Source: Curvularia clavata
Taxonomy: Eukaryota
DNA length: 64,000 bases
Assembly (NCBI GenBank): GCA_023920165.1
Contig: CP089276.1
Location: forward strand, 4,340,001 to 4,404,000
Reading direction: 5' to 3'
Shown: in pieces, positions 14,531-35,336 of the stretch
Layout of the letters: every line of letters starts with the position of its first letter
Position numbering within the stretch: the first letter of the stretch is position 1
Notes under the pieces: model-generated
Told to the model about the DNA's origin: nothing
The model's input: only the letters and a program-made list of their open reading frames with translations
Database searches by the model: none
Program-made: the position numbers and the translations under genes

Positions 14531-17500
14531 TTAAGATCCTGTGTTTCCCTGTTCAAATTCCAAACTCGCAAAATAGATACTCCAAAAAACTGAAAACGAA
14601 ACCACCATAATAGACAAAGGCACCGATGCCTTCTGCAAATCTCCGTCGTGGCCCCATGAGAAGAGCCGCATGAAGAAGAAAAGAATGCAAGACGACGCAC
14701 ATATGAAGTTGTACAGCAAAAGGCGTGGCACTGACGGTTTTTTGCGTGCAACGATACCCCCAAAAGTTTTATGCTTATCTGAATCTTCGACAACAGTCGA
14801 CTTACATTTGGGGAACAGTTTGAGAAAGTCTCGAGTGGACTCGTTGAAGCTTGTGCGCTTGTGATAGAAGTGGAAAATCGGGCGTAGATTGTAGCATGCG
14901 TGGAATCGATCGTAGAATTGGTGCTGGCCGATTGGGGGTATGAAATCCATTGGACTCGGCTCGAACTGATAGTCATACAGATTACTCCCATTTAGAAACT
15001 CCTCTCGTCTAGGTTCGTAACGATGAGCTTTGTACTTCTCGCACTAATATGAGTTAGTAGTGCTTTAATGCATAATTGACAAAGATATCGTTGCACAGAG
15101 AACATCTTACCCGATAAAAATCACAATGGGGATATTCCCAGATACTCACCCATCTTCTAGAAAGAGGCCGTAGATCGTTGTATTGCCGCCGCAATTCGTG
15201 GAAGAATTTGTACGTTGTGATAATGTCAAGTTTAATCTGAGCAAGACGACAATCATTTCCGGCAGCAACCAGAAAGAACACATGCTGAAGCGGTAAACGT
15301 AGAGGAGAAACACCGGTAGTGGTGTTCGGGCCTGTTCCAGGACCAGTTTCGTTAGAAGGCGAGCTACGGTTATCAAAGCTTTGGCTACTGTTTGCAATGC
15401 TTTCAGTAATTCCATCACTTGAAGTATTGGCATTAGATGGCGACGGCTGTGAACGAGCAACTTCGGGAGCTTGAATAGGTGCGTGGTATGCAACTCGTTA
15501 AAGTCGGGCGGCATATGCTATGGCGATCCGGGTCACTGTCTTTGCGAAACTTGAAGGAACTTCTGTCCATCTTTTCTCTCCGCACATCTGTCACGTATCA
15601 GACCACTTGATTTCGCAATGCCAGAATCTGGGAATCTACTGCTTACACAAGACCAGTGGAGTCGCGCTTCTCCAGAATCAAACGCTCGCTGTGGGCGCTT
15701 GAGCGGCCACCAGCCCCAGTCTTTTGTCCAATCTTCGAATTTGTTCTTGAGATCGTCAAAATAACTGATTGTGTTATTGTCAGACCATTTGATGGAGCTT
15801 GGGTCTGTGTCTAGCAGCTCAGCCATAACATGTTGCAATTTACCACTTCGGTTGAAACTATCCTTTTCAACATCATTTGGTTCGTGTGTCGTTATGAGTC
15901 CCATCAGAGACTTGCGAAAGGATGCAGATCTAGAAGGATCGCTACATATCTTCCATTCCAGATATGCATATGTCCTAGGCTCTTCCCAGCCTCGAAAACT
16001 CTTTTCAAGATCGTAGCTTAGCCCGCCATCAACGAAGCAATTTGTCGAAGATCCGACTGGTTTTATGTCCTGGATTATAAGCCGTTCTTTGCTTGATCAT
16101 CGAATACCTAAGAATTCTGTGGGTAATTGCAGTTCGACTTCGTTTCCAAACGTTCGTTGATGGAATAGCCAGAAGCAATACACAGGCCATCGAGTAGAGA
16201 TGTCCAAGAGGGTAAAGGCTCAGCTAAGTCAATCGGCACTGTGACATATGAAACAATAAAGATACCGGATTCAGAATTTTCCGACTTCCAAACGGTGTCG
16301 CAGTAGAATGGATATCGGCGTGCATCGGACGGCTGTTGTTGTTGTTCATTAGGTCTGCAGGTGGCGCCGAGCCATGCCAGTTGTTTGGCCACTGCAACTC
16401 GGAATTCTCTTACCCACCTGGTCGATACCGATACTCTACCTTTTTCCAAAACGACTCGTGTGCCTGAAAAATCTTCGTCCGAATGAGAGACTATGATCAA
16501 TGTGTTAAAAGAAAATATGCACATGTCAGCGATGTCAGGAAATACTAGAAAAGAAATCTCACTGTATGGATCTGATGTTGCTTTCTGAAGAGCAGGCAAA
16601 AAAGAACATTCAGTTGTATATTCCAGGTGTGGAGAACAAAATTCGCAACGGTTTCGAGCTGTGCAGCTTGTGTGTGACCCGTGATTGTAAAGACAGAGCT
16701 TAAATCATCGTTCAACCCATGACTTCGAGGCTCTTCCAGAAAGCCGACTAGGTCCCAGTCTGCGTGAAACTGTACCTTGAATGTCTCAGCAGTAAGTGCA
16801 GTCGGTTTTGATGTATTTCTTGTGATTCGAGAAAGACTTTGCCTGATGTGTTCCAGAGCATCATACTGGAAGTGCTTCATCAGTCGCTGTATATCTGAAT
16901 TCAAGGCCCCGAATGCAGGATGATTCTTAAAGTACCCATGTAGAGCTACAAAATCGAGACGAGTTTGCAATACGAAAGAGTGGCAGTCTGAGCTGTCTGA
17001 GCTCTCTGAATCAGCCTCATGTTCATGATTTAGATCGAATAAGGGTGCTTGACTTCCAACAACGATCGACTCCATTCTTTGGATTTTTTGCTCTATTGGC
17101 TCTAGCGGGATATCATATCCAAGGAGAGGTTTTTGCTGAATGCTCTCTGGTTCTGTACTAGTAGAACGCTGATCGCCAACAAGCAGCCTTCGTACAAACC
17201 CATTCAATATGGGTCGACGAAAGCGATATATAGCTTTGGCAATTTTCCTTTTTGGGTTTAACTCGATGACGTCCCGCGGATTATCCTTCTGGACCGTTTG
17301 ACTGAATTTCTTGATTTTCACCTGTAATATATCGAAGAGCATGCTCCAAATATTCAAGAGGAAGCCAGGATTGCAAGCTCTTTCGCAGAGTGCATCTGTA
17401 AAACACGCAATTACTTCTAAGTCTTCGTCTGGTGTCATCTCGAACGTATCATATGACGCCACTGAAGCATTGTCGTCTCCTTCAAAATCTCCTCCCGGAG

Positions 17501-19783
17501 GCTGGAAGACCGGGAAGGTGTGAGAATCACAAGCTGAGGTCCCCTCAGTCAGCTTCTCTTCTTCTGAGGAGAAAACAGTCGATGCTGATTCATCCAGATA
17601 ACGACTGTCTTTCCATGACGAGCCTGTACTTTGAGCCTGTTGCTTTGTGTTGTGGAAGTCAGGTTCGTTGTCCAAATGAAAAATCACTTCGTTGCCACGG
17701 CCTTCGTTCCCAACAGCTGCCACTACTGCCTCCTTTGTGATCGGAATGTCTGCTCCTTTTCGGTCAAAGAGGAGCGTCATAACTTCTCTATTCCATGCTG
17801 CTGCTACTACCTCCTTTGTAATTGGAATATTTGCTCCTTGCTGATCAAAGAGAAATCGAATAATTTCCTTGCCACTCCTTTGTGACTGGGATGTTCGCTC
17901 CTTTCTGGTCAAAGAGGAGTCTTAGAACGTCTTTTCCACTGCTTTCGTTCCTAGTAGCAGCAGCTACTACTTCTTTTGTGATCAAAATGTCTGCTTTTCG
18001 CCAGTTCCTGCGCTTGAAAAGAAGGCTCTTCCTCCCTATGTTCCCGGAAATAATTGCTTCTACCCACGGAAGGACCCCTGAAGAGCAAGCCATATAAAGC
18101 GCTGACTGATCAGAAGGCTTGAACCCTGAGTAGGCTGCCCACAAATGATTTCGTAGGGGAGAATCTTCCTTAAAGAATGGCTGAGCATATTCAAAGAGCT
18201 GGGTCGCAAACATTGGGCATTGGTTCGCATGCACCGGCCAGTTAACCACGGCATACAACAATAACAGTGATCCTCGATATGTTGATATTGTTTCCAAGTC
18301 CATGCTCTGATAGACTAAATCACTTTGCGTGATACAATTGAGGCACACTCGTGTTAGCTCATAATGCCCGTAGTGAGGTTCAAATCGGAACACCTCTAGC
18401 ACTGCAAAAGTGTCGCGCTCTTTACGCAGCAGGTAGCCTCGCGCTGACTGATGAACCAAGCGTATCTCTTGTCCTTGCATCTTTAAAAAAGACCCACACC
18501 TTACAACAGCGTCGCGGGTTGACTGCTCTACAGTTATATGAGATGGACTGGCCTGAAATCTTACTGCCGCAGCTAGTTGTTGAAGCGTTAAGGGAGAAAC
18601 AGCTATAGACACCCACTCTAAGATTGCACGGCTCAACTCCCTAGGGGTTGCTGGGATCTGCTGCAGCATGCGTTGATATATCGCTGAGAGACCACTAGGA
18701 AGACCTGTAAGAGCCTCCTGGATCTCCTTGTTCGTCCTCTTTTGTAACAACTCCTGGACTACGTAGCCTACCCACAGGAATGTATCTTCAGCATGCGCTA
18801 GGAGGTATTTTTGTATAAATGCTTGAGAATTGTCGTTCAAGCTATGGATCATTGATAGCTCCTCGACTCGGGCAGATTCGAACGGCTTGATATCTCTGTC
18901 CACTTTCTCGTTGTTGTCATGATCAAGTCTTATTCTAAGACAACCATGTAGACGAAGTATTTCTCTACTCACGATTACCAGTCTTAACGTACCGTTGCTC
19001 GACAATGAAGTCTCACTAGTAAGCATATCAACCACCTACAAAAATAACACTCTTGGTGTGCGCCCCTCCACGCCCTCGTCGAGCCCGTCAATCATACAGA
19101 ACATTGTCCCCAGCTCAGCATCAGTGACAAGTTTTACAAATATAAGCCATAGTGACTCTAGAGACGATAATATTTGCTGTGTCATATCCGAAGTCTCAAA
19201 GTATGGTAGCATGTGCTTTACTAGATGTGGTCGTTTTGTGATGATTTGGTGCACTAGTCCGCGCAGGACTGCTATAGCCGTGTTACGCTTCTCGTCTTCA
19301 GCGCAGAAGAAGAACACCAGCTCTCCATCAACTACGCGTGCTGTGTGCATCTCTAACACTTCTGTCAAGAAGACCGAGAGTATCGTCTTGCCCTTGCCTG
19401 GGCCACCAGAGATCCACAGCAGGCGTGTGTTGTTGTTACTGTCATTGCCATTACTATCCATATCGAGTCACTCCTTGTAGCTTCTATTCCGTATGGTTCA
19501 TTCGTAGGTGTCCGGGACTCTCGTACCCTTTGCGCTGATTACTTGCTCGCGGACGACGTAGGGATCAGTTATGAAGAGCGCGTTGCGACAGTTGACGGCT
19601 GCTCGTTCTGTTTCTATAAGGTGGGCATGTCAGTAGCGATTGTTATAACAAAGAACTAGTCAGTTTACCTCGGATTTCAGAACTGAGAGAATATAAATCG
19701 CCAACAGAAACTACAGAGGGTTGCGAGTGGTTATGAGCGGAGAGGCCGCTGATGCGCTCAGGGTGGAACAGATCTTCAGACAT
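14531..19783 (-). pseudogene. Disrupted chimeric NLR: short N-terminus + NACHT + ~35-aa helical repeats + long unrelated C-terminal region ending in two TM-like segments
   Basis: ATG 19783, intron 19614-19668. Walker A WISGGPGKGKT, Walker B MIDGLDE, plus FLWV, LPSGL..IY and LVHQSA. Repeats of type ITKEVVAAA..N...GK.V...LFDQKGANIP. Stops at 19498, 19468 and 19036; frameshifts near 17880, 16600 and 16140. Confidence 0.82.
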
Positions 19784-20044
19784 CTAGCTGGGGTGCAATC
19801 TTGGATACTTCCTGCACATAGCAATTGAGTACATCGAAAAGGGCCATTTCTCTGATGTGACGAAACGTATATGCTAGTCGCGCACGGATAGAGCAATGAA
19901 TTTGATAGATGCGACCTCATCTGCAGCCAAGAAGAGTAGGATAGGCCAAGATGCGGAGTTCCGCAACGTACAATGTCCATGCGCAATAGTACACGTCGCC
20001 GCGTCCTGCACGCGAAACCCATAACAAAACTGAAATCCTTAACA

Positions 20045-20306
20045 TGATAGCTAACTCGTGTATTTTACCTATACTCATAAATTAAATTAATAATCTAAGC
20101 TATTAGGGCTTAATGTTTAATATCATATACTTAGATAGTATACAAGATGCTCTGTTGCTGTGTTGCGCCAAGCACTACAGATTACAGAGCACGTTACGTG
20201 ACTTCTGATGTGATCTGCCTGCAGAATTGCGCCGCGGTGTCCTAGGTTGTGATCCTCCAAGCTGTCTACTACTCCATGCGTATCATCGTTTTCCAGGGCT
20301 GTAACA
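20045..20306 (-). repeat. Solo LTR related to the gypsy LTR at 9230-9546
   Basis: Shared blocks AGGGCTTAATG, TGCTCTGTTGCT, TTACGTGAC, ATCCTCCAA and TTTTCCAGGG..GTAACA. No clear TSD; left edge approximate. Confidence 0.8.
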
Positions 20307-21950
20307 TTTATATGCTTCCCCAGAAGGCTCCTTACACTCCCAGAACTGAGCTGAGTTTCAGCCTAAACATAGAGTTTAATCTTCCGTACCCTGACCGCTG
20401 AACCCTTTACTTTGGCTGTGATTCACTCACAGTAAGGCCAGACTCGATTGGCCTGGAATTGAGGATGTCTTAGATTAGCCTACAATTACGCAGGTATAGA
20501 CTCCAAAGCATTGAATTCCTAAGACAGTAGCCAGTAGGTATATAAGATATACGGCAAAACTGAACCATAATCGTATTATGAATCCAGCAAGTATTGGAAT
20601 TTAGAGTTCCTATATGTTGAGAATAGCTTGGTGAATGGATAGGAACGAGGGAAATGAAGCCGGGTAGTGTAATCAGGCTGTCATTTCGCTCTCGTCATTG
20701 TCAAACAAGGCTGAGCTGAAATATGCTGAAGGCTCGATGCCTTTTATTCTTGGTATTCAACATCACCAATGAGACCAGCCGTAGGGCTGCGCTGTGAGCT
20801 TCAGGTGTCGGAGACGCCTCCGCGAGGCAACCACAGGACAAAGTTATGCCTGAGAAGAACGGAGTTTGGTACACCTCTGCTTGTAGGAGCTTCTGTGGGA
20901 ATCAATAACAGCGCTACTGGCATGTCTTCTGACGCGGCGGTCACACCCTTCCAGATCCCCACTTCGGCCCAGTATCAGCCGTGACGCCCGTGCGAAACCT
21001 TCTCTCACGGTATCCGAATCAGCCGGGACTTTCATCCTCCCTGCCACGGCGACCACACAAGCTCCGGACTCGAATAAATGTATGGCGACGGTCACTGCAA
21101 TTGAGTGGATACGTCCTACGAACTGCCTAGGCGCAGGACATGCGTGAGATGGAGTGGAGATTTGCCGAGCCGATGCGATGGGGTGGCTGCCGGTAGCTAG
21201 GCGGTAAATGTGGTTACGGAACATATGTCTTGGGCTATAGGTTTCTTGCCAATGATTATCTATAGAGGCCTGTCAGTTCATTGTTAGTACTAAACAAGGC
21301 TACGTTGCAGCAGAAAAATCCTTTATTCGTATGTGTGAGTTGATACTCCATCCTCGAAGCAGCTCCAATGTACGCGTTGGCACGGTAGCTGTAGCGCGAG
21401 ATGGGAACTTTGCTTCAAGCACCAGCACAATTCCCCTTTGATTATCCGGCTGTCCTCGGCTTCAGTTTGATTGGCGTTGATTGCTATTACACCGCAATCA
21501 AGTCTTCGGCTGTTTAACCCGGAGCCTGCTTGTAATGGACACGCTTTTCCAAAGAGGTGACTCCTAGAGTAGCTTTTCCCTCAGGAATAGCAATCATGGT
21601 ATTATTTGCTTCTGCTAGTCATGGGGCTCATTAGGGCGAATTAGCGTGCTGTCAGCCTAGGGCTCAATTGAATGATAAGGCCATGTATTGTAGCTTCAAA
21701 ACCTGATACTTATTGAATGCAAAAGCTAATATTTTACCGGTGAATCATTCCGTGCCCTGTTCCGCTGTCCTCGCAAAGCCGTCATGCGTACGAAAAATTT
21801 CGTTTGTGCGAGGGTACGGTGTACAGCCACACCGCATAGCCCACTATTTATTGCCGCTTATGCCCCCTCCCTAGGCAGTTCTCTTTGCTTTATCGACACC
21901 GCGCGACAACAAAGCAACAGCAGCATATGTTTGCAACTCTTGTCTAGACC

Positions 21951-24075
21951 ATGATGAGAACGACCAGGCATGACACAGTTCAGAGCAAGTGCTGTCCTGT
22001 GTGCAACTGCTTGGGCTACTGCGCCGAGCAGAATCAAAATGATAGAGTCCCTCGATCTAGGCCGAAGGTTCTTACCTCGCGCACGTTTCGTGACTTCGAG
22101 GCATCTGCGAAAGACGGTTGCCGGTATTGCGACTATGCTTTTCAGGGTTTTGTCCTTTTGGGATCTACTGCAGAGAATCCGGAGGTAGAGCTGATATTAT
22201 ATGTTGACTCACCCACCGAGTTGCACTCAGCAACTAATGAGAATTTTTGCGATGTTGTGGAGATTTATCCATCTTCAGGTATGCTTGGTAGATAGTGAAT
22301 GTGTTAGCTTTGCTGGAGCTGATGTATGCATGGTAGATACGGAATCACCTTTTCCAAAAGTCGCAAATGATGTACCAAGAGACGATATCCGAAAAACATC
22401 CTTAGAATTCATTCAGGAGAATTACGACTGTTGCTGTAATTTCCATCCAACGTGCGCTGAGGACGCACCAAGCCTTCCAAAACGGGTTGTGGATATCTCC
22501 AAAGAAAGGTATCGACTTATTGAACCAGAAAACGGGACAAATGCGGCATATGCCACGTTATCTTATAGTTGGGGTGGCAAGAACTTCATGACAACTACGT
22601 TAGGAAGCTACGAAAGGTTAAAGGACGGCTTTGAGAAAGACGAGATGCCTTTGGCTTTCCAAGAGGCAGCCGTGATTGCTCAATATTTGGACATCGATTA
22701 TATCTGGATCGATAGCCTATGCATTGTCCAGGACAACGAAGATGACTGGGAGAGCCAAGCTGCCCACATGGGACAAATCTTCGAATCAGCCGCCGTCACC
22801 ATCGCTGCCTCTTTATCTCACAACCCGCACGAATCTCTATTTGTCAGGAAGAACCCTAGGTATGAAGAATTCGAGCTTTACAACGATTCTCATGGTAACT
22901 ACAACGGTGCTGTTTTCAAAGCAAGAAGAAAAACTACCTTTGGTATACATGCCAAGACTGGTCGGTCAAAGGATGTAGATCACCTCGATACACGTGCTTG
23001 GGGCTTGCAAGAAAAGCTTTTATCACGACGTCTGATAGCTTTTACCGGCGCTGAAATACAATGGACATGTCGAACATCAAAAGTATGCGAATGTCGCAGT
23101 AAGACTTACACGCCAGAACCACTGTTACTCCCATCTGCCAAAGAAGCTGATATTAAGAATGAACATGGGTATGCAAAGGCTTGGAGCAGAATTGTAGAGC
23201 CTTACTCAGATCGCAGTCTCACATTCCCAGATGATCGACTCCCGGCAATAAGTGGTTTAGCGAAGAAGTTCCAGCAGACCACAGATTTTACTTACATCGC
23301 AGGCCTATGGAAAGAAAACATTTGCTACGATTTGATGTGGCAATGCGACATCATGACTTCAGCCCTTCTAAGTACTCCAATGGTCGATTCTGCAGCATCG
23401 TATGTCACATCAACAAGAGCATACTTAGCTCCAAGCTTTTCCTGGGTTTCCGCACGTGGTGCCGTAAACTATAGGTTGGCACGCCATTCATATCCGGGCA
23501 CTCGCATTCAGCACATGAGCCTAGTAAATTATAGATGCAGTACTATTGGACTCAATCCGTTCGGCAAAGTTACGGACGGATCACTAGATGTACGCGGTAC
23601 CACCATCGAAGCGTGGTTGCGGAGCAGTTCCGGAACTCCTGATGATTATGAGCTATGTATCATGGATACTATATACCAGCCAAATGCTGATCAGCGAAAA
23701 GCCTGTGAATTCTCCATCGATTTGCAACATACGGCAGGGATATGGGCCAACACTGGAGAACAACCAGCACAAGCTTTGGGTAGTAAACGCCTACGTATAG
23801 GAATCGGAGATATAGAAACGCCAGTTGTATTGCTTGGTGTCTACTCGATCCACCACCGGAACTACTTGTATCAAAACTTCCTGATCCTGAGGTCATCTCC
23901 TCGAGCGATCAATACATACGAGAGACTCGGCATAGGGTCAGGCAAAATCTATAACAGAGACGAAATCCCTGCACAGTCGCAACTCGTCCAGCCGTTTGAA
24001 TGGCTCTCGGTTGACCTTGGGGAAAGAGCCCACGCTCTGAAAACTGTCGTTGATCAGGTGATCCGAATCACATGA
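21951..24075 (+). CDS. HET-domain (heterokaryon incompatibility) protein; intron 22279-22336
   Basis: N-terminal CxxC...SAxxGCxxC, then LPKRVVDI, YATLSYSWG, YIWIDSLCIVQD..DW, LDTRAWGLQEKLLSRR, YS.RSLTFPDDRLPAISGLA and APSFSWVS. Confidence 0.92.
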
Positions 24076-24710
24076 TCATTCGTCATGCTGTGTTGTGTTA
24101 AGACATGTCAGCTGAAAAGATGTGTCTTCGTACCTTCACATGGTGGCGGAAAGACTATGGGGATTCCTGTGGGTAGACATCTCAGAGATGCTCCACACAA
24201 TAGTCTTTATTTGTGGCAGCCCATTCATCGCATCCGTCGACTTTGCACCTTGAGGCTGGCATTGATATTAAATTTGGTCTGCAGGTCTAATGGCGCACAA
24301 TTGTTGGAGGGTGTGCGGGAGGGAGGGAGGGGGCGGGCGGGGGTGGAACCTCGTTATGTGAAGGATGAGACTAGTGGATGAGCTGGCAGCCGATAAGAAA
24401 GGGGTTTAGGAGATGAAGACAGACTTTGCTGCCTACAGTTCAGCCCAACCCCGCACTTACGTTGTCTTAAGCACAACTGAGCTGAAGCGCGCTTCGCGCC
24501 AGCCTTGCACCGGTCACACCACTTCGGTTAAGCCATACACGAAACGTATAAACTGCATATCGCTTCCAACGCCAAGAGACTAGGGATGGGTAGTGGTATT
24601 TTATATCTACAGCCTTTCGTAAATACCATACTGTATTTACACCCACCAGAGGGACCATACAGATGAGCTCGATGAGTAAGGTATGGATCTCGGAGATAGT
24701 TCGTCACACG

Positions 24711-24891: not shown

Positions 24892-26065
24892 CGATCCCCT
24901 AGATCTGGTTCGGTCCACTAGGATGGGTCCGATCAACCACAAATGCTATGAGGAACCAAACTGTAGTTGAAGAGGATAGAGTCCGGCTTTCATTAGTTTA
25001 GTCCTTGGTAGTTATTGCTTCTCTTTTATTTGAGTGTAAGTAATAAACATATTGCCTCCCCTCATTCACTAAAGCACCTCACAAGCCACTGCCAGCCCCT
25101 TACACTTTTGATTGGCGCAATCTCCTGGAAAGTAGCTAAGCCAAACCTATCACAATAAGTTCATTACCAAGTCATCAAATTACTCTCTTCTGGGTCACGG
25201 TAAGGCAGCTCGTAAGCTGTAACAAGCAGCTAGTACAAGTCCATAGCAGTCTCTAGATTTCTCACTTCATATCAAGCTCTATGCATGAGTTTTCAAAATA
25301 CTATGGAAGTAGGACATGATAAGACAGACAAATATGTACAGCCTCAGCAGCGTACAGACCACGATACGGACATCTCTCTAATTATCAGGTGACTGGTATG
25401 GCCTTGTTAGACCTTATTTAGCCAAGAATTGCACATACACCATACAACATACGCGCAGTAATTACATAACAGCAATTAGAGTAACTATCAAACCAGAGGT
25501 GCAGATACCCCATCCCTATTCACACCCGCGTCTCATGCTTACGCTGCTAATCGCGTGCAGCCCTGACTGGACAAAGATTTTACCATACCGATTTAATAGA
25601 GCTACCCCAGTTGCGCACGGATTGGTCCGCTTCGAAATATTTGCCTTGTTGCCTTGCTCAGAGGGACACTATCATGGGATCAATTCTATTGGTTGATAAG
25701 GAATCCATCTGCAGCCACTGTATTGAGTGCATGCACCCGACTTTCTAGCCAATAGAAAATTGTGCAAAGAGCCTCGCTTTTCCGCGAAGTGCCATTCATT
25801 GATCGCATCATCCACCTCTTGTGAGTATTGTCTGAAGTTTGGTGTGGCATGTCCCTACCCAGCTGTATGCATGCAAGAATTTACGACAAAACCTTGTCAT
25901 AAGACGGCAACTATATGCGCTCAAGCATAAAATGCGCCCATCGCTCGTGGAAGTTTTGACCACTCCTTCTACTACCCTCTCCGCTCACTCAAAAAGGCGG
26001 TCAAGTCATTGCGTCCGCATTATCTTTTGCTGTTGTTCACATCCCCAACCAGTAGCTACGTGCCT

Positions 26066-29000
26066 ATGAAGAGCCAGTCGATCAGCAGCGACGAGAAAGA
26101 CATGTCTGAGATGACATCACAGACACTGCTAGTAAACTCCAGAATTCCTTCAGTGAGGGATAATGTTGGAGACACTGCAGCACATCAGCAAGGCTCAGAC
26201 CACAGCAACGGCACAGATAGTCACACAATTGATGGACATTATGGACGAAATCTTTGGGAAGAACTCGAAGATGCGATCGATGAAAAATTGGTCACAAGCG
26301 AGTTCGAAAGGACGCCCCACGATTTTCTCCCTGAGGGCGAATTGGAAAAGATTCTAAGATCCGTTGCCAAGCGACTATACAAAGGCAATTTGCATCAAGT
26401 CATATCCAGTCTTTTACTACTGAACACGCCTCAAACACCCAGAGAAGAGCTATCCGCTGTTGTGGAATACATCTTGGACGACGAATTCCCGGCAATAAAA
26501 CTTTTCTTCACGGTATTGTCCTCCAGGCATAGGGACCCTTATAACGCCATGATGATTTTCATGCGACAACGCAAGCCGATTCGCGACGCTGATCTCCCGA
26601 TACCATGGTCGAATGAACAGGTTCGAAAGGACGTTCAAAACCACCCTTTCTCTCTCCTGGAGAGATCACCAAGGGGGTTATGGCCAAAATCATCCATCTC
26701 AGAGTTCCATGATAAGCAACGTCGTTTCCAAGCAGCAGTATTGACTACCCACCCGGCAAAGATACCTGGACAATTTGGTCAAAACATTCTTCCGTTCACT
26801 CAAAGAGATTCCAGATGCAATCGAGGCGCATTTGGTATTGTTTCCAAATATACCGTTCATCCGAACCATTATGATGGTGACAAAAAGGTGGGTTGATTCA
26901 TGCTTCAAACATTAGGAATGTGAGAAGAAGACGACTAATTTGAGAGTGTAGATAGGCTCCCCTTGCGTTGTGGCGGTCAAGGAACTTACAAAGGATAACG
27001 ACAAAGTTGCACACCATTGGGCAAATGAGGTGAATGCCCTATCGAAGATGAACAGTCTTAATCAAGAACATATTGTTCGATTCCTGACGGCTTTTACACG
27101 CGGCAAACCGGAAGACCAACCAGAAGACTTGGAGTATTACGTAGTTTTCGAATGGGCAGAAGGTGGCAATCTAAAAGATCTATGGGGCGAGTTTCCACAT
27201 CCAGATCGAAGTGTTGCATTCATCCAATGGATCATGAAACAATTGTACGGACTGTGTCAAGCGCTTGCTGCAGCTCACTACTTGAGGGATGAAGACGGTG
27301 TATACAGGGGTGCATCGTACCGCCATGGTGATCTGAAACCTGAGAATATTCTTTGGTTTCCATGGGAGGGTGAAGATTGGGGAACATTGAAGATATGCGA
27401 TTGGGGAGAGGCCAAGATTCACCATGAGGTCACCGCACTTCGCCATGCAACAACCACCCAATTTGGAACAAGGAGATACGAGCCCCCCGAGGTTGTCGGA
27501 GGAAAGCCTGATCTTGATGAATCAGCAAAGGATGCGCGTTCCCGACTCTACGATATATGGAGCATGGGTTGTGTCATGATGGAGTGCATTATTTGGCTTG
27601 TATATGGTCTGGGAGAGCTCAAGAGATTCAACAAGAGCAACAAGGGGGACCACAGCATCTCTGAATTCTTTTACGAACCGTACAATGAGGGCTTGGTGAT
27701 CCATGGGATCGTAAAGCAATGGCTAAATTACATGATGAATGATCCGTTTTGTCGACCGGGCGAGACTGCTCTCGGCGACGCCTTGGAGATCATATCCAAA
27801 GGTTTGCTGGTAATTCGACTTCCACCGGGGGATATACAACCAGAAGATGTTCCCGGTATCGAATGCGCTTCAGTGCTGTCTAAAGAGCTGACTCCACGAG
27901 CTGCGCCAAAACCTACGTTGATGGTGTCCCCGCCCCTTGACGAAGATTCTGGCAACATTTACGCGTCTGCAAAAATCACGGCTCCACTCACGCCGATTCC
28001 AGTTTACAACAAAGTGCAAGACGCCTTAGCGGCAACGCAAAACTCCGCTGCGCGCCCCGGTATCAGCGTGACGTTAGCGGAACAACCTGTCGCCTCTACA
28101 AAGACCGAGCATCTTTCTGGTGAGCCAGCGCGATACCGTGCCACAGATTTAGTGTCTTGTCTTGCGAAAATTGTCGAAACTAGCCATAACGACCGATATT
28201 GGCGGGCTCCTGGCTCGCCTTTGCCCGCCCCGCAAGCATCAAGTGGCTCTCATTTAGTCCCAGGTTCGATTGCTAATAGGCATGCTGTCACCAAACAGCC
28301 CGATCAAGGCAACTACTCACATCCGGAGCTTAATCGAGAGCGGTGGACGTTTGTCGTGGATAACGACTTTGCTGCAAGGGTACTTTCCAATCGCATACAC
28401 ATCCAAGCTCTGTCGGGTGCTGCATCATCGACGCCGAAGTTGTGTGAAAAATGCGCTGAAATCCAAAAGAAACTCTGGAGCCCGTTGTTCAAAGAGACGT
28501 TCACAACCGAGACACTCAGGCATAATGCTGAAGCTAAGCTATGCGATCTATGTTGCCTCTTCTGGCAAGCTTGCATTCAACATAACGCTTCCGATCGCCG
28601 ATTGATAGTATTCGAACGAATCGATTCTAATCTGAAGATTAGCGGCAGCGGCACAGAGTTGCATGCTATCAGCCTCTTCCGAGGAAATGGTAAGTTAGCT
28701 AACGCCATGGGGATTGCATATTGCTAATTGTTGCTGACTTAGCTTCGTAGCCCACAGTCATGCATATAGTCTCCAGATCGGGTTTGGGGAACTGCCCGAA
28801 CCTGGGCATCCGGCACATCTCGATATCATTCGGGCTTGGATTGCCGATTGCGACGAGAACCATTCCGACCCCGTATGTAATCCATACGGGAAACGTAGAG
28901 ATTCTTTTCCGAAAAGTGATCTTACTCCATGCATGCCTACTCGGCTCATAGACGTTGGGTCTGGAGATGATCGACATGTTAGGCTAATACCGACAGAGCG

Positions 29001-30346
29001 AGGCAAGGATCTGAAGTGGATTGCGCTTTCATACCGCTGGGGAAGCCGACATCACTTTTCCACAACTCGGGCAAATATCAATGAACACATGGAAGACATG
29101 AGTTTGTCTGACTTACCAGAGGTTTTTCAAGATGCTATCCACATGACACGAGGTCTACAATGCCGATATCTCTGGATAGATGCCATTTGCATCATTCAGG
29201 GAGAAGATGGTGATTTTACGGCAGAATCAAAAAGAATGGAAAACGTGTACAGCGGCGCGTATTGTGTGCTCGCTGCAAGCTACGCCAACAGCTTTCGACT
29301 GTTTGATACCCGTGAAAAAAGAGCTCAGGTTGCGCTAGGCTCTATGGATAGCCAGACCGGCGTCATCTATGCTTGCGAGATGATCGACAACTTCAAAGAC
29401 CATGTGCTAGATGGTCCACTTAGTCAGCGCGGGTGGGTCTTGCAGGAGCATGCTTTAGCTCGTCGTACGATATTCTTTACAGAATACCAGACCTATTGGG
29501 AATGTGGCCATGGAGTTCGTTGCGAAACCATGGCGAAGATGAAAAAGTGAGTACTTCAAAATTGTTCAAAGTGCCTGGCCGCCCCAGTGCGACGAGGCTC
29601 ACAAGATGAACAGTGTATCGGCTGCTTTGCTAGGCGACCCCGATTTTCCGAAGATACTGAAGCCTGCTGAGCATGGAGAGAGGATACTGCGATATCAGGA
29701 ATTGTATCAACAATACTCACAACTTAGCCTTACGGCTGACTACGACCGACCATCCGCTATTGACGGTTTGGAACGACGACTGATTCGAGCCATGGGGGTG
29801 AATGGCGGGTTTGGCGTACTGGAAGACCTCAAGAATCCAGGGCTTCTACGTCGCAGTCTAATGTGGTATCGTGCCACAGATACTTTAAGGGTCATCAACT
29901 TCCCTGAGGGTCGTGAGAAAGTCCCATCATGGTCTTGGATGTCGGTCTCTGGTCCAATTCATTACTTTCGCTTGGAATTTTTTGGATACGAGTGGAAAGA
30001 CATACATTCACCGTGGTCGAAGTCTGGGGTTGACCACGCAGGTAATGTGATGATTGCAGAAGCTTGTCGTCTCAAGCATCCTGATTGTACTGAGGCTCCA
30101 GGAAAAGACATAAGCTTCGACATCCCGGAGAAAGTCAAAGATCCCTATGAGGAGAATTTACTAGCGGTTGTTCTCGGCATAGAGAAAGGCGACAAAAGTA
30201 TTCAAGACAAAAGGCACTGTGTCCTTATTGTAGAGCCGATATCGCAGCAGTATGTTACGGATTATAAAAGGTGCAGGAGAGTGGGGGCGGGTATCGTGAC
30301 GGGAAATCACTTATCTGAGAAATGGGGAATGTGGTCCATAATTTGA
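26066..30346 (+). CDS. Protein kinase-HET fusion (~1362 aa); introns 26888-26951, 28690-28750, 29547-29613
   Basis: Kinase motifs: RGAFGIV, VAVKEL, NEV, HIVRFL, FEWAEGGNL, YRHGDLKPENIL, KICDWG, YEPPE, DIWSMGC. HET motifs: MPTRLIDV, WIALSYRWG, YLWIDAICIIQG, LSQRGWVLQEHALARR, VPSWSWMS. Exons sum to 4089 nt in frame. An extra 5' exon from 25932 is possible. Confidence 0.9.
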
Positions 30347-31491
30347 ACATACGAAGCTGCAATCCAAGAAACATAAGATCTTTCTCATTGCTCATTCCAG
30401 TAACTAGAGCGTATATCTCCCCAACAGATAAGATGTTCCTCGCCTCTCCTTCTCCAATAGAACACGCGAGGCTGAGATTCGTCATCACCCCTGCCTGCTA
30501 CATTGCATTAGTGTGCATGGTTAGATCGCAGGGGTCGCGGTTTTTGAGGTGGCTCACACTCGTTTCCTGGGATCACTGCGATCCATTAATGCTTGGCGTA
30601 AATGCCCTCACGCACACGTCTCCACCAGGACTAGTGCGCCATATCATCCTTCATAGTCCTTTGGATCATGTGACATGCTTCGGCTTACCGCTTTTGCTGA
30701 GCTCTCAACCAGTGCGGATATCTGCTAAGCCGATGAGCTGGCTACTTACGATTTAAAATCGTACACTCAATTAGCTCATATGGTATGGTTCATCAGATGG
30801 CTGTAAACACGGTACAAAATACTACTACATCTATAGGTGTGAATGACCAGCCATTTCGACCCTGGTCACCCACCACTGCACTGTGACATCGCGCGCGGCT
30901 CGAAAGCAGCCACAGGCGCTCAGCCGGTTCTCTTCTCCGCAGCATCTCTTTGCCGTACTCCAGGTAGCGCAACTTCTTCGCTTTGTCGCGGAAGTGCGTT
31001 TCATCAAATTTCTTGTCAAACTTAAAACCCTCATTCATACCACAGTGCGCAGTGTAGTTATAAGACGAAGCGCCACACATTACAGGCGTGAAGAGCGACT
31101 AAAGTCCAGGTGTAAGGTTCGTCCCGCAATACGAGGTAATCCGAAGGGCAACCACACTCAAAGTCCTAAGGCCCACCATCTCTTGCTTAGCCTGCTACCG
31201 CCACCGCCGATACCTCCAAGGCTGAAGATGGACTGGGAAAAGGCTCAGGTATCGTGTGTGGTGCTTAGGATTTGTGATTGGACAAACATCATTTAGTGGC
31301 TTGCGTCGGGAGCAGAGGGGCTGAATTCTTACGCAAACTGTGTGCATTGAATTGCACTGGGAATGGGTCGACATCTATCAATACTGATAACGTTGCCAAA
31401 TATAATTCATATGATCATGATTTCTTGCCCCCTCTGACTGCCTTCATCATTTGCATTCCCATCGTACACTTGATGGCGAAAGGTTGGCACA

Positions 31492-33762
31492 ATGACCATT
31501 GAGACTATAGAATCGCAAAACATGGAGGTTTCGATGTCTCAGCCTGACCGTGGTACTACCGCTGAGTCTCTGACCGGTGGCAGTGAGGCTGGGCTGCATC
31601 AATCCCCTGAGGTGGGTGGATCGGACACCCATTACGTGTATAACGGTAATAAACCTATCGACGAGAGAACCCTTGCAATAGCTAAGTATCAACAGTCCAA
31701 ACCCCTAGCGGAAGTCCGTCGCAGATTATCCCAATGAATGACACCGCGATCCCCATATCTGCAAGGCAGGCTCGCAGGCCTGTAATCGAGAGCTCACTCT
31801 TGCGGGGAATGGCAACATTGAAACAATACGTCGCTTCGATCCCACCTCCACAACATAGGAGGCATAGAAAAACTCAATCGGATCACATTTTACAATCACC
31901 TCACACTTGGAATATTGCGAATGCGTCGAGCCCGCGTAGAAGTTTGACAAACGTCGAGCGAAACCCAAGATCTGAAATCGAACGGAGCGCAGGTCCTACC
32001 GATAACCAGCTGAGAGCTACTCTACTTTCATTCAGAGATGTACCAAAGAACACGGGTTCTCGTCTTGTAGACATGCTGACCGATGTCTACGCACAGGAGG
32101 CTTTGACTGATCAAAATTTCATACCAAACGGGCAGCTAGACGAAGTCGTCACGCAGGCGTCTGTTGACCACGAACTTTCACGGTTCGAGCATCTGCCTAC
32201 TTACTTACGTCATGGTCTATGGCGGAAGACGCGCCCTCAAATCGTCATACCGTCTTCTCCGCACGCAATCAGCAGCAGTGCTGCGAAAAGTGCAAGCAGA
32301 AGGAATTTTCAGAAAATATTTGCCATCCTTGTCTTGATGCGACGTCCGGAAAAGATTTTGAGATTTGTCAAGGAAAAGGTGCATGATGGTGATCTCCCAC
32401 TGTGCTTGGATGCCACAAAGGATTCCTTACGAAGGAAGACAGATCTGCATACCGCCCTACGATGTCTTAAAACGCGAAGCGATGTGCGGGATTTCGTGGA
32501 GCGTCAGTGGTGCGTGTTGGCACCATCATTCAACCCAAGTGAAGTAGTTCAGTTTCCACGATTGGTAATATCAAAAAGAGAGATCCTGCCATTTGTGTTT
32601 TGGGATAATAAAGGACACTCTGGTGGGTCTGGCTCAGTTCACCAGGTGAAAATACACCCCAATCACCACTCCTTCGATGAAACCTTGGTAGGTTGTGTTT
32701 TGGATTTGGGATTTGAGCATTTCAGGACTGACCTTGACAGGTCCCCAATAACGTAGTAGCAGTAAAAGAGATATCCAACAGTGATAAAGAGTCTTTCGAA
32801 CGCGAGTATAATATATTACGCCATCTGTGCAACCGCAATAAAAATACGCCTCACCATCTAGTAACACTACTCGCGGCCTATGAAAAAAACGACAAGTTTT
32901 ATCTTCTTCTGCCATGGGCTGAAGTGGACCTTGATCGATATTGGCGAGAAAAGTTCCCAGATGCGCCATGCCCGAATCCAGAAGTGTCTTCTTGGATTAG
33001 AACACAATGTTGTGGTCTTACTGAAGCGGTATCTTACATCCATCGCTATCACACGACATCCGCAACATCGATATTGCGAGCTGAATATTCGCCTCAACTG
33101 GGAAGCACACATGCCCCGGTGAAAAAGGTCGAGCTATTGGGCAGTCGCAGAGGCGAGCTTACCCTCAGCGGCCGACATGGAGACATAAAGCCTGCAAACA
33201 TCCTTTGGTACCCAGACCCATGGGATAAACGAGGCATCCTTCGTCTCGCAGATTTCGGCACTGCTCGTTTTAGTAAGGTCGATCGCATCTCTAACGGAAA
33301 AACCATTCCTAGCTCTAGACCTTATCGGTCTCCAGAGAGTATCTTGTCTGAAGATAATCTTTCCAGCCAATGCGATATCTGGGCTCTGGGATGCGTGTTC
33401 CTTGAATTTGTTTGCTGGTATGCTGGTGGTCGTGATCGATTGGAGGCTTTCGAAAAAGCACGCGCCCGTGGATATGAAAGTCCATCATTTTGTTATTGCA
33501 TACATGAAGGAATGGATAACAGAACGGATGCTCCACTACGCATGGCGATCAAAAGATCTGTCACCGAGGTCAGTATTTCACGTCAAAAGAACGCTCGTTT
33601 ACTGACCTGGGATACTAGATGATTGATAATTTACAGCAACAAGTTAAGATGGAGATAAATGTAGACATGATCAGCCTGATGAAGATAATACAAGATGAAA
33701 TGCTTGTTGTATCGCGAGGTCGAAAGAGCTCAGGGACCATTCTTCGAAACCTCGGATCTTGA
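31492..33762 (+). CDS. Fungal non-RD Ser/Thr-like protein kinase (~705 aa); introns 31646-31695, 32688-32740, 33569-33618
   Basis: Motifs SGGSGSVHQV, VAVKEI, FERE, HLVTLLAAY, LPWAEVDL, GRHGDIKPANILWY, LADFG, YRSPE and DIWALGCVFLE. Exons sum to 2118 nt in frame. The start is less certain. Confidence 0.85.
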
Positions 33763-33849
33763 ACGAGAACCCTGTAATCGCGTGTAAAGGCCTACCTCTA
33801 GCTCTTATCCAAATTGGGTTGTTTAATGTATAGTTGAAGCTACCTCTTC

Positions 33850-35336
33850 AAGACCTTCTCCCATTGTATATGCGCAAAGTGTCCTGAATTGATGCTCGTA
33901 AGACCAGCATGAGCGATCACCAGCATACCCTAAGTATAGTATGGGGCATGTGCATAAAGGAGCTTGAAGCCGGATGCTCCAATTCCCTTCACTATGCTGC
34001 TGTACCTTCAACCGGATAGCATAGATGAGATTATATCACCCGACGGGTTAAATATCTCCATGAGCCGACTTATCGCTTTCTTCAGGTCGATATGGGTTAA
34101 GCCAATGCAATCCTTTTAGTTTTCTTTTAGGTTTACTAACATACCCAAAAGAAGATCTCCCACATCCATGTTCGTGTCCTTAGCTGGTATATCCCTCATA
34201 CGTGGAGTAAGGACGTCGGCCACCAATTTAAGTCTGGACGAAATGCGAAAAATGCCTCCCGCATGTCAGTCACCATAGGATAGCTCTTACTTGTCCTCAA
34301 GAGTATGGAGAATTGCTTCAGCGATGTGGCTGGTAAGTACCTGCTGAGCCATGATTGCATTACCTACCATATTCTTCTTTTAAGGTACCTTGATAGGTGT
34401 GAAAACTATGGTATTACCAAACCACTGATTAATGCGGCGCTGAAGGCGTTCGATGATAAAAAACTCTCTTACATGCCAGTGCAGTCAACCTATCTAGTCT
34501 CTTTGACCTGGATATGAAAAATCTAGAGTTAGCGCTGATGACATTCAAAGAAGCGTTTGCAATACGCAAAAAGTTGTTGAATCCGACTGAGATGGGCGCA
34601 TCAGGTCTCAATGACATATCGCTTGCATACAGCGAAACGGGCGAACTTGACAAAGCCTCCACTGCACACGAGAAAGCGATTGACATCCGATTATGTACGA
34701 ACAGTGACAGGACCGGCAATTATTACGGTAATATGTCTATTCTGTTCTCGAGAATGGATGAATCCAACGAGGTGACGGATACGCTCAAGCGACGTACATT
34801 ATTTAAAGATTTTACGGATGAAACGCTCATAAAGACAATAAATTCGCGTTTTTCAGGGGACGTCGTGCTTGTTTCCCGTATCTGGGTCCAAAAAGGCAGG
34901 ATCGACTAGGCTCTTCAACTTGCGTCAAAAGCTCTAGATCTTCGAGAGAAACTACTAGGTAACCGCCTGAAAGCGGGTGATTCAATATATGGCGTAGCTT
35001 CACTGCTGCATGTACACGGGAACTCTTCTTCTGCCATGTGAGTAAAAACCAACTAATTTGTGACACTTGGAAGTCACTGACATGACGCGTTACAGTGAGC
35101 TACTGAGACAGCTGACGAATATCATGGGATCTTCTCCTGGGAGCAAGCTGACCCTTGCCAGGGCTTTTTATAATCTTGCAGTTTTCCAGAATGAAAGAGG
35201 AAGACATGAGGAAAGCTTGAGGGCTGCATCGAAACCAGATGCTGCAGGAGAGCCACTCGTTGAAGAAAGGTTCATGAAAATATCTGCACGATATTGTGGT
35301 AGTAAACTGAAGAACAATGAAAGTGTGCTTGTTTAG
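33850..35336 (+). pseudogene. Degenerate TPR-repeat gene, resembling the C-terminal half of a fungal NB-ARC-TPR NLR
   Basis: TPR-like peptides AFAIRKKLL, SGLNDISLAYSETGELDKASTAHEKAIDIR, GNYYGNMS and LARAFYNLAVF. Frameshift at ~34470-34515, in-frame TAG at 34907, intron-like 34332-34385 and 35038-35094. No recognisable nucleotide-binding domain remains. Confidence 0.75.

What the first reader, a model, noticed from the sequence alone, without database searches (positions are those of the whole stretch)
14531..35336. Compact fungal immune/allorecognition island: NLR - HET - kinase-HET - kinase - TPR
Seen: five consecutive genes, all from non-self/cell-death families, with no housekeeping gene between them and LTR relics interspersed. 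They are a NACHT NLR (divergent), a HET protein, a kinase-HET fusion, a related stand-alone kinase, and a TPR gene. Established: fungal NLRs and HET-domain effectors drive regulated cell death, and partners are often genomically adjacent. Inference: this is a linked sensor -> non-RD kinase -> HET module, functionally analogous to receptor/TIR/IRAK-Pelle signalling. I know of no characterised fungal pathway with this layout.
Basis: partly seen in the sequence, partly recalled or inferred. Interest (0 to 1): 0.85.

Follow-up and report, generated by a model that had tools for sequence, protein, structure and literature searches.

The report
Conserved fungal kinase pair with HET domain
Three working neighbour genes (a kinase, a related kinase fused to a HET cell-death domain, and a HET-only protein) stay together in many fungi and look like one death-switch module, while the NLR and TPR genes beside them are broken relics.

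Summary
All five loci exist at the stated coordinates. Only three are intact, and the NLR-to-kinase-to-HET reading does not hold.

- **Broken genes:** the NACHT-DUF7104 gene (14531-19467, minus strand) is a pseudogene with three in-frame stops and three frameshifts. The TPR locus is a transcribed remnant with an in-frame TAG.
- **Intact, spliced and expressed in RNA contigs:** a HET-only gene (688 aa), a kinase-HET gene (1362 aa) and a stand-alone paralogous kinase, K2 (643 aa).
- **Linkage elsewhere:** among dereplicated metagenome loci with at least 4 kb of upstream flank, 15 of 17 kinase-HET genes have a K2-type kinase next door. Three public genomes carry the pair under neighbouring locus tags. 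Eleven annotated proteins fuse the two as kinase-kinase-HET. The kinase tree mirrors these pairings.
- **HET-only gene:** it joins the pair only in the closest clade.
- **NLR and TPR relatives:** they are not linked elsewhere, apart from one NLR relic.

I read this as a two-kinase switch controlling a TIR-like HET executioner, functionally closest to plant tandem-kinase immune proteins.

One oddity: the only RNA contig across kinase-HET intron 2 uses an acceptor 8 nt upstream of the in-frame one. That would give a HET-less product.

This scan met a kinase-HET gene before on other DNA (e1-7577901). My literature searches found no paper on the pair.

The parts
14531..19467 (-). NACHT(NPHP3_N)-WHD-DUF7104-long C-terminal tail gene: a pseudogene. 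In-frame stops at 19036-19038 (TAG), 16097-16099 (TGA) and 15498-15500 (TAA). Frameshifts at about 17875-17881, about 16600-16620 (a T run) and about 16130-16150. Two genuine introns at about 15646-15588 and 15110-15044.
   Evidence: Pfam. Collinear tblastn with the 1486-aa homologue P0140. Junction-by-junction reading. DNA contigs of X4 and X7 cross about 16610 without gaps, and X7 also crosses about 16140. X4 carries 25 extra letters at 17881/17875 that read as the missing repeat residues. The public model P0137 (877 aa) covers only 27% of the 17848-19035 ORF.
20069..20313 (.). The only dispersed-repeat relic inside the island, about 74% like 9255-9553.
   Evidence: indel polymorphism here in X4 and X7
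21951..24075 (+). HET-only gene (HETo), 688 aa. Exons 21951-22278 and 22337-24072, then the stop. Intron 22279-22336 (58 nt).
   Evidence: Pfam HET 1.8e-24. Intron seen in RNA contigs of two studies, X8 and X16. Open frame of 688 codons. 24% identity over 358 aa to the HET half of the kinase-HET protein, E 2e-28.
26066..30346 (+). Kinase-HET gene (K1-HET): helical pre-kinase domain, non-RD kinase, Cys-rich linker, HET domain, C-terminal extension. Exons 26066-26887, 26952-28689, 28751 (or 28743)-29546 and 29614-30343, then the stop. The in-frame form is 1362 aa.
   Evidence: Pfam. 100% match of exon 2 to the public protein P0001. RNA contig of X8 shows introns of 64, 53 and 67 nt. The 53-nt form stops at codon 855 and the 61-nt form is open for 1362 codons. 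Family alignment A1.
28690..28750 (+). Intron 2 of K1-HET, with two acceptors 8 nt apart (ending at 28742 and at 28750). The RNA contig uses the first, which is out of frame for the HET domain.
   Evidence: In all 13 related loci whose equivalent intron I printed, it is phase 1, and by my reading of those sequences each has a single acceptor.
31734..33768 (+). Stand-alone paralogous non-RD kinase (K2), 643 aa. Exons 31734-32687, 32741-33568 and 33619-33765, then the stop. One 5'UTR intron at about 31645-31694.
   Evidence: Pfam. tblastn with P0157 and P0158. Splice sites read. All three introns seen in RNA contigs of X8 and X16.
34460..35336 (+). TPR-only remnant. TPR_12/TPR_10 ORF 34460-34906, in-frame TAG at 34907-34909, continuation 34910-35037, intron 35038-35095, last exon 35096-35333. 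No NB-ARC or NACHT upstream.
   Evidence: Pfam. Frames and stop. Intron seen in the RNA contig of X8.

Best explanation
The functional unit is a conserved cell-death module of three genes.
- K2: a stand-alone non-RD kinase with a helical pre-kinase domain.
- K1-HET: its paralogue fused to a HET (TIR-like) death domain.
- HETo: a HET-only protein, present in the closest clade only.

The NACHT-DUF7104 gene and the TPR locus beside them are decayed bystanders.

Shown:
- The three genes are intact, transcribed and spliced.
- The K2 / K1-HET pair is kept adjacent or fused as kinase-kinase-HET across Pezizomycotina.
- Both kinase families keep every catalytic residue together with an invariant HGD motif.

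Inferred:
- The two kinases act as a pair, by heterodimerising or trans-phosphorylating. The pair is itself the sensor or switch.
- Perturbing the pair, through an effector, a toxin or a non-self partner, releases the HET domain.
- The freed HET domain oligomerises and kills the cell, probably by TIR-like NAD+ consumption.
- HETo may co-assemble as a helper.
- In this species the choice between two acceptors 8 nt apart may decide whether the death domain is translated at all.
For: **Intactness and expression.** RNA contigs show the HETo intron and three K2 introns in two studies (X8, X16), and the three K1-HET introns in X8.

**Fusion family.** There are 228 long proteins at E<=1e-5. Nearly all of the 120 listed carry PF00069 plus PF06985, from Dothideo-, Sordario-, Leotio- and Eurotiomycetes.

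**Adjacency in metagenome loci.** The 80 loci were picked by K1-type motifs only and fall into 61 clusters at 97% nt identity.
- 35 clusters show kinase plus HET.
- Of the 17 with at least 4 kb of upstream flank, 15 have a K2-type kinase neighbour: 13 head-to-head and 2 co-oriented. The misses are L010 and L073.
- 17 of the 35 have a K2 neighbour in all.
- None of the 7 K1-like kinases without a HET domain has one.

**Public genomes.**
- SLS60_005864 / 005865.
- J1614_009608 / 009610.
- N0V89_010125 / 010127.
- In six further species the two proteins share the same longest-contig length.

**Fusion.** Of the 16 proteins of at least 1600 aa, 11 are [K2-like]-[K1-like]-HET and one has the window's order.

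**Tree (quick IQ-TREE).** The K1 and K2 clades split with SH-aLRT 100. The first kinases of tandem proteins fall with K2, and the second kinases fall with K1. Three species pairings mirror each other in the two clades.

**HETo.** Orthologues at 45-50% identity lie downstream in L001, L002, L003, L006/7 and L009. In L007 housekeeping genes flank the trio.

**Catalytic residues.** K, E, HGDxKPxN and DWG or DFG are invariant.

**HET fold.** The HET model has pLDDT 89. Its best matches are nucleoside deoxyribosyltransferases and many TIR domains, at Z 4-5.8.

**Literature.** Reviews call HET TIR-like and sufficient for cell death (PMC12881547, passages). PKinase is a listed N-terminal domain of fungal NLRs (PMC4986451, passage). 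K2-type kinases sit on NACHT-type proteins P0203 and P0217.
Against: - No function was tested. Binding of the two kinases is not shown.
- HET fold matches are weak (Z below 8), and HET biochemistry is listed as not determined in the review table.
- The only RNA contig across K1-HET intron 2 uses the 53-nt form. That form stops after codon 855, before the HET domain. In that sample the main message would encode no death domain.
- Gene order here differs from the relatives. The central gene is inverted relative to its two neighbours.
- Two kinase-HET clusters with long upstream flanks lack a K2 neighbour (L010, L073).
- HETo is next door in only 4 of the 14 clusters with at least 4 kb of downstream flank.
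- Some annotated tandem proteins could be merged models of two adjacent genes. ORF continuity in L046 and L052 was unclear.
- The metagenome contigs come from a limited set of studies, and their taxa are unknown.
Confidence: 0.55

Rival explanations
1. First reader's model. The adjacent NACHT NLR senses a signal and passes it through the non-RD kinases to the HET executioners, and the TPR gene is part of the pathway.
For: - An NLR-type gene lies next to HETo here.
- DUF7104 repeats and an NPHP3_N fragment lie beyond HETo in the closest related locus, L001.
- Kinase and HET domains are both known N-terminal effector domains of fungal NLRs (PMC4986451, passage).
Against: - The NLR has three in-frame stops and three frameshifts.
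- The frameshifts at about 16610 and about 16140 are shared by DNA contigs of other organisms.
- The L001 copy is only a relic of about 340 nt.
- The L007, L008 and L009 flanks hold housekeeping genes and no NLR.
- P0140 hit 1 of 80 loci and the TPR ORF hit 0 of 80.
- The TPR locus carries a premature stop.
Confidence: 0.06
2. The pair or trio is an allorecognition (het) super-locus. Tightly linked, co-adapted genes trigger HET-mediated death when mismatched alleles meet after hyphal fusion, as in other two-gene het loci.
For: - Tight linkage of a HET-domain gene with a partner gene.
- A structural rearrangement, the inverted central gene, relative to related loci.
- HET-domain proteins underlie several known het systems (PMC12881547, passages).
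Against: - The review stresses that most HET genes are not het loci.
- Orthologous pairs are kept across orders, with mirrored phylogeny.
- Strains differ by only about 1% SNPs in the RNA contigs. I saw no deeply divergent haplotypes, but the data could not have shown them.
Confidence: 0.2
3. In this species the fusion is being dismantled. Splicing at the upstream acceptor makes K1 a HET-less kinase, so the locus now works, if at all, as two kinases plus the separate HET-only protein.
For: - The X8 RNA contig uses the 53-nt intron, giving a stop two codons later.
- By my reading, the 13 related loci printed have a single acceptor at this intron.
- HETo is transcribed alongside.
Against: - This rests on one contig from one run, and contigs drop minor isoforms.
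- The HET-coding exons downstream remain open for 507 codons, with all conserved motifs.
- An acceptor 8 nt downstream would restore the frame.
Confidence: 0.12
4. There is no functional link. Fast-evolving non-self genes simply pile up in a plastic, transposon-rich region.
For: - An intact copia element and an AT-rich zone lie 5-15 kb away.
- Pseudogenes sit on both sides of the trio.
- A similar NLR/HET cluster is tabulated elsewhere in the named species (PMC10512319).
Against: - Recurrent adjacency in 15 of 17 clusters.
- Fusion proteins and the mirrored tree.
- In L007 the trio sits among housekeeping genes.
Confidence: 0.07

Closest known systems
[quoted passage not shown]
   Same: PF06985 HET domain with the conserved WID...C..Q and RGW.LQE motifs, followed by a C-terminal extension. 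The domain is reported as sufficient for cell death. It is often encoded next to a partner gene (PMC12881547, passages).
   Different: None of the named systems has a protein kinase fused to the HET domain or a paralogous kinase as the linked partner. No allelic polymorphism is shown here.
Plant tandem kinase proteins (for example Sr62, WTK1/Yr15, WTK4)
   Same: Two related kinase units act together as an intracellular immune sensor. Relatives of this locus carry both kinases in one polypeptide.
   Different: - The plant proteins signal to a separate NLR helper (10.1101/2024.08.30.610287, start of abstract only). Here a HET death domain is attached directly.
- Both fungal kinases look catalytically competent, not kinase plus pseudokinase.
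- In this window the two kinases are separate genes.
- No sequence relationship was tested.
Fungal NLRs with an N-terminal kinase domain
   Same: K2-type kinases occur on NACHT-type proteins (P0203, P0217). PKinase is a listed NLR N-terminal domain (PMC4986451, passage).
   Different: The intact proteins here have no NOD and no repeat domain.
MyD88 / IRAK-Pelle TIR signalling
   Same: A TIR-like domain and non-RD-type kinases in one pathway.
   Different: - The kinases are not close to IRAK by sequence.
- No death domain was found.
- The TIR-like domain is the C-terminal output here, not the receptor-proximal adaptor.
SARM1 (SAM-TIR NADase)
   Same: A weak structural lead. Residues of about 140-224 of the pre-kinase domain align to SAM domains, including the SARM1 tandem SAM (Z 2.7-4.2). 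The HET model aligns to the SARM1 TIR domain (Z 4.9).
   Different: The scores are in the range of common helical arrangements. This is no evidence of homology.

Membership tests
HET domain proteins (PF06985) | Match to the Pfam HET model above its gathering score | tested here: met
   HETo scores 87.2 bits and K1-HET 102.1 bits against a cut-off of 22.5.
HET domain proteins (PF06985) | TIR/NDT-like fold | tested here: inconclusive
   AF2 model pLDDT 89.1. Foldseek found nothing at E<=0.001. VIA-align: deoxyribosyltransferases at Z 5.8/5.1/5.1, and TIR domains at Z 3.7-5.1 (rmsd 3.2-4.8, 81-102 residues aligned).
HET domain proteins (PF06985) | Induces cell death when expressed | not testable with these tools
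   Needs expression assays.
Active eukaryotic protein kinases (PF00069) | Pfam match plus VAVK Lys, alphaC Glu, catalytic Asp/Lys/Asn and DFG Asp | tested here: met
   Pkinase 81.5 and 72.1 bits. K284, E300, D401, K403, N406 and D424 are invariant in 24 K1-HET sequences. E22, D148, N153 and D171 are invariant, and K9, K150 and F172 at least 90% conserved, in 38 K2-type sequences.
Non-RD kinases | Residue before the catalytic Asp is not Arg | tested here: met
   H-G-D is invariant in both families.
IRAK/Pelle kinases | Closest sequence relatives are IRAK/Pelle, with an N-terminal death domain | tested here: not met
   - Best solved relatives of K1 are Rad53/Chk2 (7 sequences matched at E<=1e-5).
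- The 60 rows shown of 302 matches for K2 are CDK2, GSK3, MAPK6 and one LAMMER-like kinase, and none is IRAK.
- The pre-kinase model gave no death-fold match. That part is inconclusive.
Fungal NLR (NACHT/NB-ARC plus repeats) | NOD domain, winged helix and repeat region | tested here: met
   NPHP3_N 2.9e-24, GPIID_WHD 4.8e-08, DUF7104 repeats.
Fungal NLR (NACHT/NB-ARC plus repeats) | Uninterrupted reading frame | tested here: not met
   Three stops and three frameshifts against homologue P0140. Two of the frameshifts are shared by other organisms' DNA contigs.
Tandem kinase immune proteins | Two kinase domains in one polypeptide | tested here: not met
   They are two separate, separately spliced genes here. 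The feature is met in 11 related annotated proteins.
Allorecognition (het) locus | Divergent haplotypes under balancing selection, and an incompatibility phenotype | not testable with these tools
   I saw only about 1% SNP differences between strains. There is no population sample.

The most novel reading that the evidence does not exclude
Pezizomycotina carry a widespread counterpart of plant tandem-kinase immune receptors that needs no NLR. A pair of paralogous non-RD kinases, split into neighbouring genes or fused, acts as bait and switch. It is wired directly to a TIR-like HET executioner. In this species an 8-nt choice of 3' splice site gates whether the death domain is translated.
Probability: 0.22. 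Interest if true: 0.85.

Novelty: new variant of a known kind. Interest (0 to 1): 0.64.

Why it matters
Most of the many HET-domain genes in fungi have no known trigger. A conserved, genetically compact kinase / kinase-HET pair gives a concrete hypothesis to test: how a HET (TIR-like) death domain is controlled without an NLR. The hypothesis can be tested with a handful of constructs. It also suggests that sensing through a pair of duplicated kinases may have arisen in fungi as well as in cereals. Finally, it corrects two public gene models and shows that the apparent five-gene island is three live genes plus two relics.

Tried and rejected
- **Whole-genome search:** no genome is held for this window. 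I could not compute the genome-wide density of HET and NLR genes.
- **Complex prediction:** K1 (residues 1-620) with the K2 kinase domain gave 'no answer', ipSAE 0.00. This is no evidence either way.
- **Foldseek against PDB:** nothing at E<=0.001 for the pre-kinase model or the HET model.
- **Protein atlas on the pre-kinase domain:** only unnamed Ascomycota clusters.
- **Representative search with the pre-kinase domain:** 109 hits. Most are proteins of 200-330 aa that cover the domain up to the glycine loop. I take them for first-exon fragments. No new architecture emerged.
- **Earlier scan notes:** nothing by place or by sequence.
- **RNA contigs over the NLR:** X8 and X16 gave no cover on 15400-19400. 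I do not count this as evidence of silence.
- **Search for a lost HET domain downstream of K2:** tblastn with 120 kinase-HET proteins hit nothing there.
- **Tandem loci L046 and L052:** I could not settle whether they are one gene or two.
- **Literature:**
  - 'kinase-HET', 'HET-kinase', 'Pkinase-HET' and 'HET-Pkinase' gave 0 papers.
  - 'heterokaryon incompatibility' plus 'protein kinase domain' plus 'domain architecture' plus 'HET domain' gave 1 paper, which lists PKinase only as an NLR domain.
  - 'tandem kinase' plus 'fungi' plus 'HET' gave only plant and pathogen papers among the 15 listed of 113.
- **Careful tree search:** it did not finish. The tree cited is the quick one.
Full report
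**What the window is.** The window is fungal. Its left end carries an intact copia-type polyprotein ORF (3-3722, minus strand) and an AT-rich zone at 4-10 kb. An MFS transporter gene follows, then the stretch in question. After that come an RTA1-like gene, two Zn2Cys6 regulators and ordinary metabolic and transport genes. Two database proteins that are 100% identical to window translations are named by their source as Curvularia clavata proteins: P0001 and P0137. No whole genome is held for the window.

**Observation.** Pfam confirms all five loci.
- NPHP3_N/NACHT, winged helix and DUF7104 repeats on the minus strand of 14531-19467.
- A HET gene at 22195-24072.
- A kinase and then a HET domain on the plus strand of 25931-30346.
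- A second kinase at 31686-33622.
- TPR_12/TPR_10 at 34460-34906.

I also scanned 101 further ORFs of at least 45 aa from the intergenic stretches and the AT-rich zone. They gave only chance-level hits. 'LTR relics interspersed' is not borne out. Self-comparison finds one repeated piece inside the island, 20069-20313. It is about 74% like 9255-9553, which is flanked there by inverted repeats.

**The NLR-like gene is a pseudogene.** It is collinear over its whole length with a 1486-aa homologue, P0140, named by its source as Exserohilum turcicum.
- Reading each junction shows two real introns, at about 15646-15588 and 15110-15044.
- It also shows six disablements that fall inside aligned coding sequence:
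  - TAG at 19036-19038, within the NACHT domain.
  - A frameshifting deletion inside a DUF7104 repeat at about 17875-17881.
  - A one-base shift in a T run at about 16610.
  - A shift at about 16140.
  - TGA at 16097-16099.
  - TAA at 15498-15500.
- DNA contigs from two other organisms bear on this. X4 and X7 both cross about 16610 without gaps, and X7 also crosses about 16140. Those two shifts are therefore real and shared. At 17881/17875, X4 carries 25 extra letters whose reverse complement reads as the missing repeat residues. That deletion is therefore specific to the window's lineage.
- The public model P0137 (877 aa) skips the broken parts and covers only 27% of the 17848-19035 ORF.
- I found no effector domain upstream of the P-loop.

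**The TPR locus is a remnant.** The TPR ORF runs into an in-frame TAG (34907-34909). The stop falls where the repeat pattern simply continues. The ORF then goes on to 35037, has an RNA-confirmed intron (35038-35095) and ends at 35333. No NOD domain lies upstream.

**The three intact genes.**
- **HETo:** 21951-22278 and 22337-24072, 688 aa.
- **K1-HET:** four exons (26066-26887, 26952-28689, 28751-29546, 29614-30343), 1362 aa.
- **K2:** three exons (31734-32687, 32741-33568, 33619-33765), 643 aa.

RNA-type contigs of the same species label from two studies (X8, X16) carry GT..AG joints at the HETo intron and at three K2 introns, one of them in the 5'UTR. X8 carries all three K1-HET introns. The 67-nt third intron (29547-29613) fits the family consensus around that junction. 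It shows that the public model P0001, which needs a 25-nt intron there, is wrong at that point.

**An unexplained splice.** For K1-HET intron 2, the X8 contig removes 53 nt (28690-28742). That places a stop two codons later, at codon 855, before the HET domain. The in-frame acceptor lies 8 nt downstream, giving a 61-nt intron. The equivalent phase-1 intron in 13 related loci shows, by my reading of the printed sequences, a single acceptor. Contigs keep only the dominant form. The minor form may exist, but in that sample the main message would encode a HET-less kinase.

**The kinases.**
- K1 and K2 are paralogues: 26% identity, E 2e-22. Their pre-kinase regions also align weakly, E 5e-6.
- Across 24 K1-HET sequences and 38 K2-type sequences, the catalytic Lys, Glu, Asp, Asn and DFG/DWG Asp are conserved, and the HGD (non-RD) motif is invariant.
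- Neither kinase is close to any solved kinase. K1 is nearest Rad53/Chk2 at about 2e-7. K2 is nearest CDK2/GSK3/MAPK6 at about 6e-9. No IRAK or RIPK appears among the rows shown.

**The fusion is widespread.** A search with K1 exon 2 among long proteins found 228 at E<=1e-5. Nearly all of the 120 listed carry both kinase and HET Pfam domains. They come from four classes of Pezizomycotina.

**The pair is conserved.**
- *Annotated fusions.* Among those 120 proteins, 16 are at least 1600 aa. Eleven of the 16 have a K2-like unit, then a K1-like kinase, then HET. One (P0103) has the window's order.
- *Stand-alone relatives.* A search with K2 found 74 relatives, mostly stand-alone kinases of 550-790 aa.
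- *Locus tags.* In three species the tags adjoin those of the kinase-HET gene: SLS60_005864/005865, J1614_009608/009610 and N0V89_010125/010127. In six further species both proteins report the same longest-contig length.
- *Metagenome loci.* Eighty loci were retrieved through K1-type motifs only and dereplicate to 61 clusters. Of these, 35 show kinase plus HET. Of the 17 with at least 4 kb of upstream flank, 15 have a K2-type kinase next door: 13 head-to-head and 2 co-oriented. L010 and L073 do not. Start-to-start distances could be estimated for 13 head-to-head loci, three of which are cut before the HET part; they are about 0.7-2.2 kb.
- *Control.* None of the 7 K1-like kinases without a HET domain has such a neighbour.
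- *Tree.* A quick maximum-likelihood tree splits the K1 and K2 clades with SH-aLRT 100. It places tandem first kinases with K2 and tandem second kinases with K1. It mirrors three species pairings between the two clades.

**The third gene.** Full-length HETo orthologues (45-50% identity) lie just downstream of kinase-HET in L001, L002, L003, L006/L007 and L009, the loci closest to the window. They are absent from ten clusters with at least 4 kb of downstream flank. The usual order is K2(-) K1-HET(+) HETo(-). The window has HETo(+) K1-HET(+) K2(+). This is the same trio with the central gene inverted.

**NLR and TPR are not part of it.**
- In L007 the trio is flanked by ATG7, a deaminase, a carboxypeptidase and a GGACT-family gene. 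The L008 and L009 flanks are likewise ordinary.
- Only L001 shows an NLR trace: about 340 nt of DUF7104 repeats and an NPHP3_N fragment.
- The TPR ORF has no relative in any of the 80 loci.

**Folds.**
- The pre-kinase domain models confidently as a helical domain (pLDDT 82.5). It has no clear structural relative. The best matches are SAM-like five-helix domains at Z of 4.2 or less, which is only a lead.
- The HET exon models at pLDDT 89.1. Its best matches are nucleoside deoxyribosyltransferases and a long list of TIR domains, at Z 3.7-5.8. This agrees with the published view that HET is TIR-like (PMC12881547, passages), but it is weak on its own.

**Mechanism.** Shown: conservation, intactness, expression and catalytic motifs. 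Inferred: the two kinases form a working pair that is itself the sensor or switch for the HET executioner. Its nearest functional parallel is the plant tandem-kinase proteins (10.1101/2024.08.30.610287, start of abstract only). The rivals are:
- a het super-locus;
- a fusion being dismantled by splicing in this species;
- mere co-location.

**Literature.**
- The reviews I read in passages (PMC12881547, PMC10197012, PMC4986451, PMC9815663) list kinases only as NLR N-terminal domains.
- Searches for kinase-HET terms returned no paper.
- Another agent of this scan noted a kinase-HET gene with one-codon exons in another genome (e1-7577901). I did not test that claim.

**Caveats.**
- There are no functional data.
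- The taxa of the metagenome contigs are unknown, and the contigs come from few studies.
- The tree is the quick version.
- Annotated tandem proteins may include merged models.
- The splice oddity rests on one contig.

Noticed in passing
28690-28750: Tandem 3' splice sites 8 nt apart in K1-HET intron 2. The only RNA contig uses the upstream one, which puts a stop before the HET domain. The 13 related loci I printed appear to have a single acceptor.
   Followed up: partly
24087-24134, 29948-30006, 30497-30558: RNA contigs carry CT..AC joints, that is, introns of minus-strand transcripts. One lies just downstream of HETo. Two overlap the last exon and 3' end of K1-HET, so a spliced antisense or convergent transcript exists there. 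No Pfam domain was found in the local minus-strand ORFs.
   Followed up: no
15641-15850 (minus strand): The long C-terminal tail of the NACHT-DUF7104 family holds a module of about 90 aa (EDWT..W.WWP motif). The same module occurs after the kinase in P0016, a K1-like kinase protein that lacks a HET domain (33% identity, E 4e-11). The homologue's tail (P0140), and the window's aligned copy, end in hydrophobic stretches that I read by eye as two helices; I ran no transmembrane prediction.
   Followed up: partly
17875-17881: DNA contigs of another organism (X4) carry 25 extra letters here that restore the DUF7104 repeat. The window's frameshifting deletion is therefore lineage-specific. X4 in turn has an extra A behind 18484.
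   Followed up: partly
29547-29613 and 14531-19467: Two public gene models look wrong. P0001 uses a 25-nt intron where RNA shows a 67-nt one. P0137 splices around the broken parts of the NLR pseudogene.
   Followed up: yes
3-3722 (minus strand) and 4000-10000: An uninterrupted 1240-aa copia-type gag-integrase-RT ORF runs off the window start. An AT-rich zone (GC 0.30-0.35) follows it and holds a unit of about 810 bp bounded by inverted repeats (9146-9250 / 9855-9956).
   Followed up: no
L001:10399-14741: In the closest related metagenome locus, DUF7104 repeats, a DUF6536 ORF and an NPHP3_N fragment lie beyond the HET-only gene. NLR debris next to the trio may therefore be older than the window's species.
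   Followed up: partly
31112-31167 and 31645-31694: Two plus-strand introns lie upstream of the K2 start codon, one seen in X16 only. This suggests a long, spliced 5' leader.
   Followed up: no
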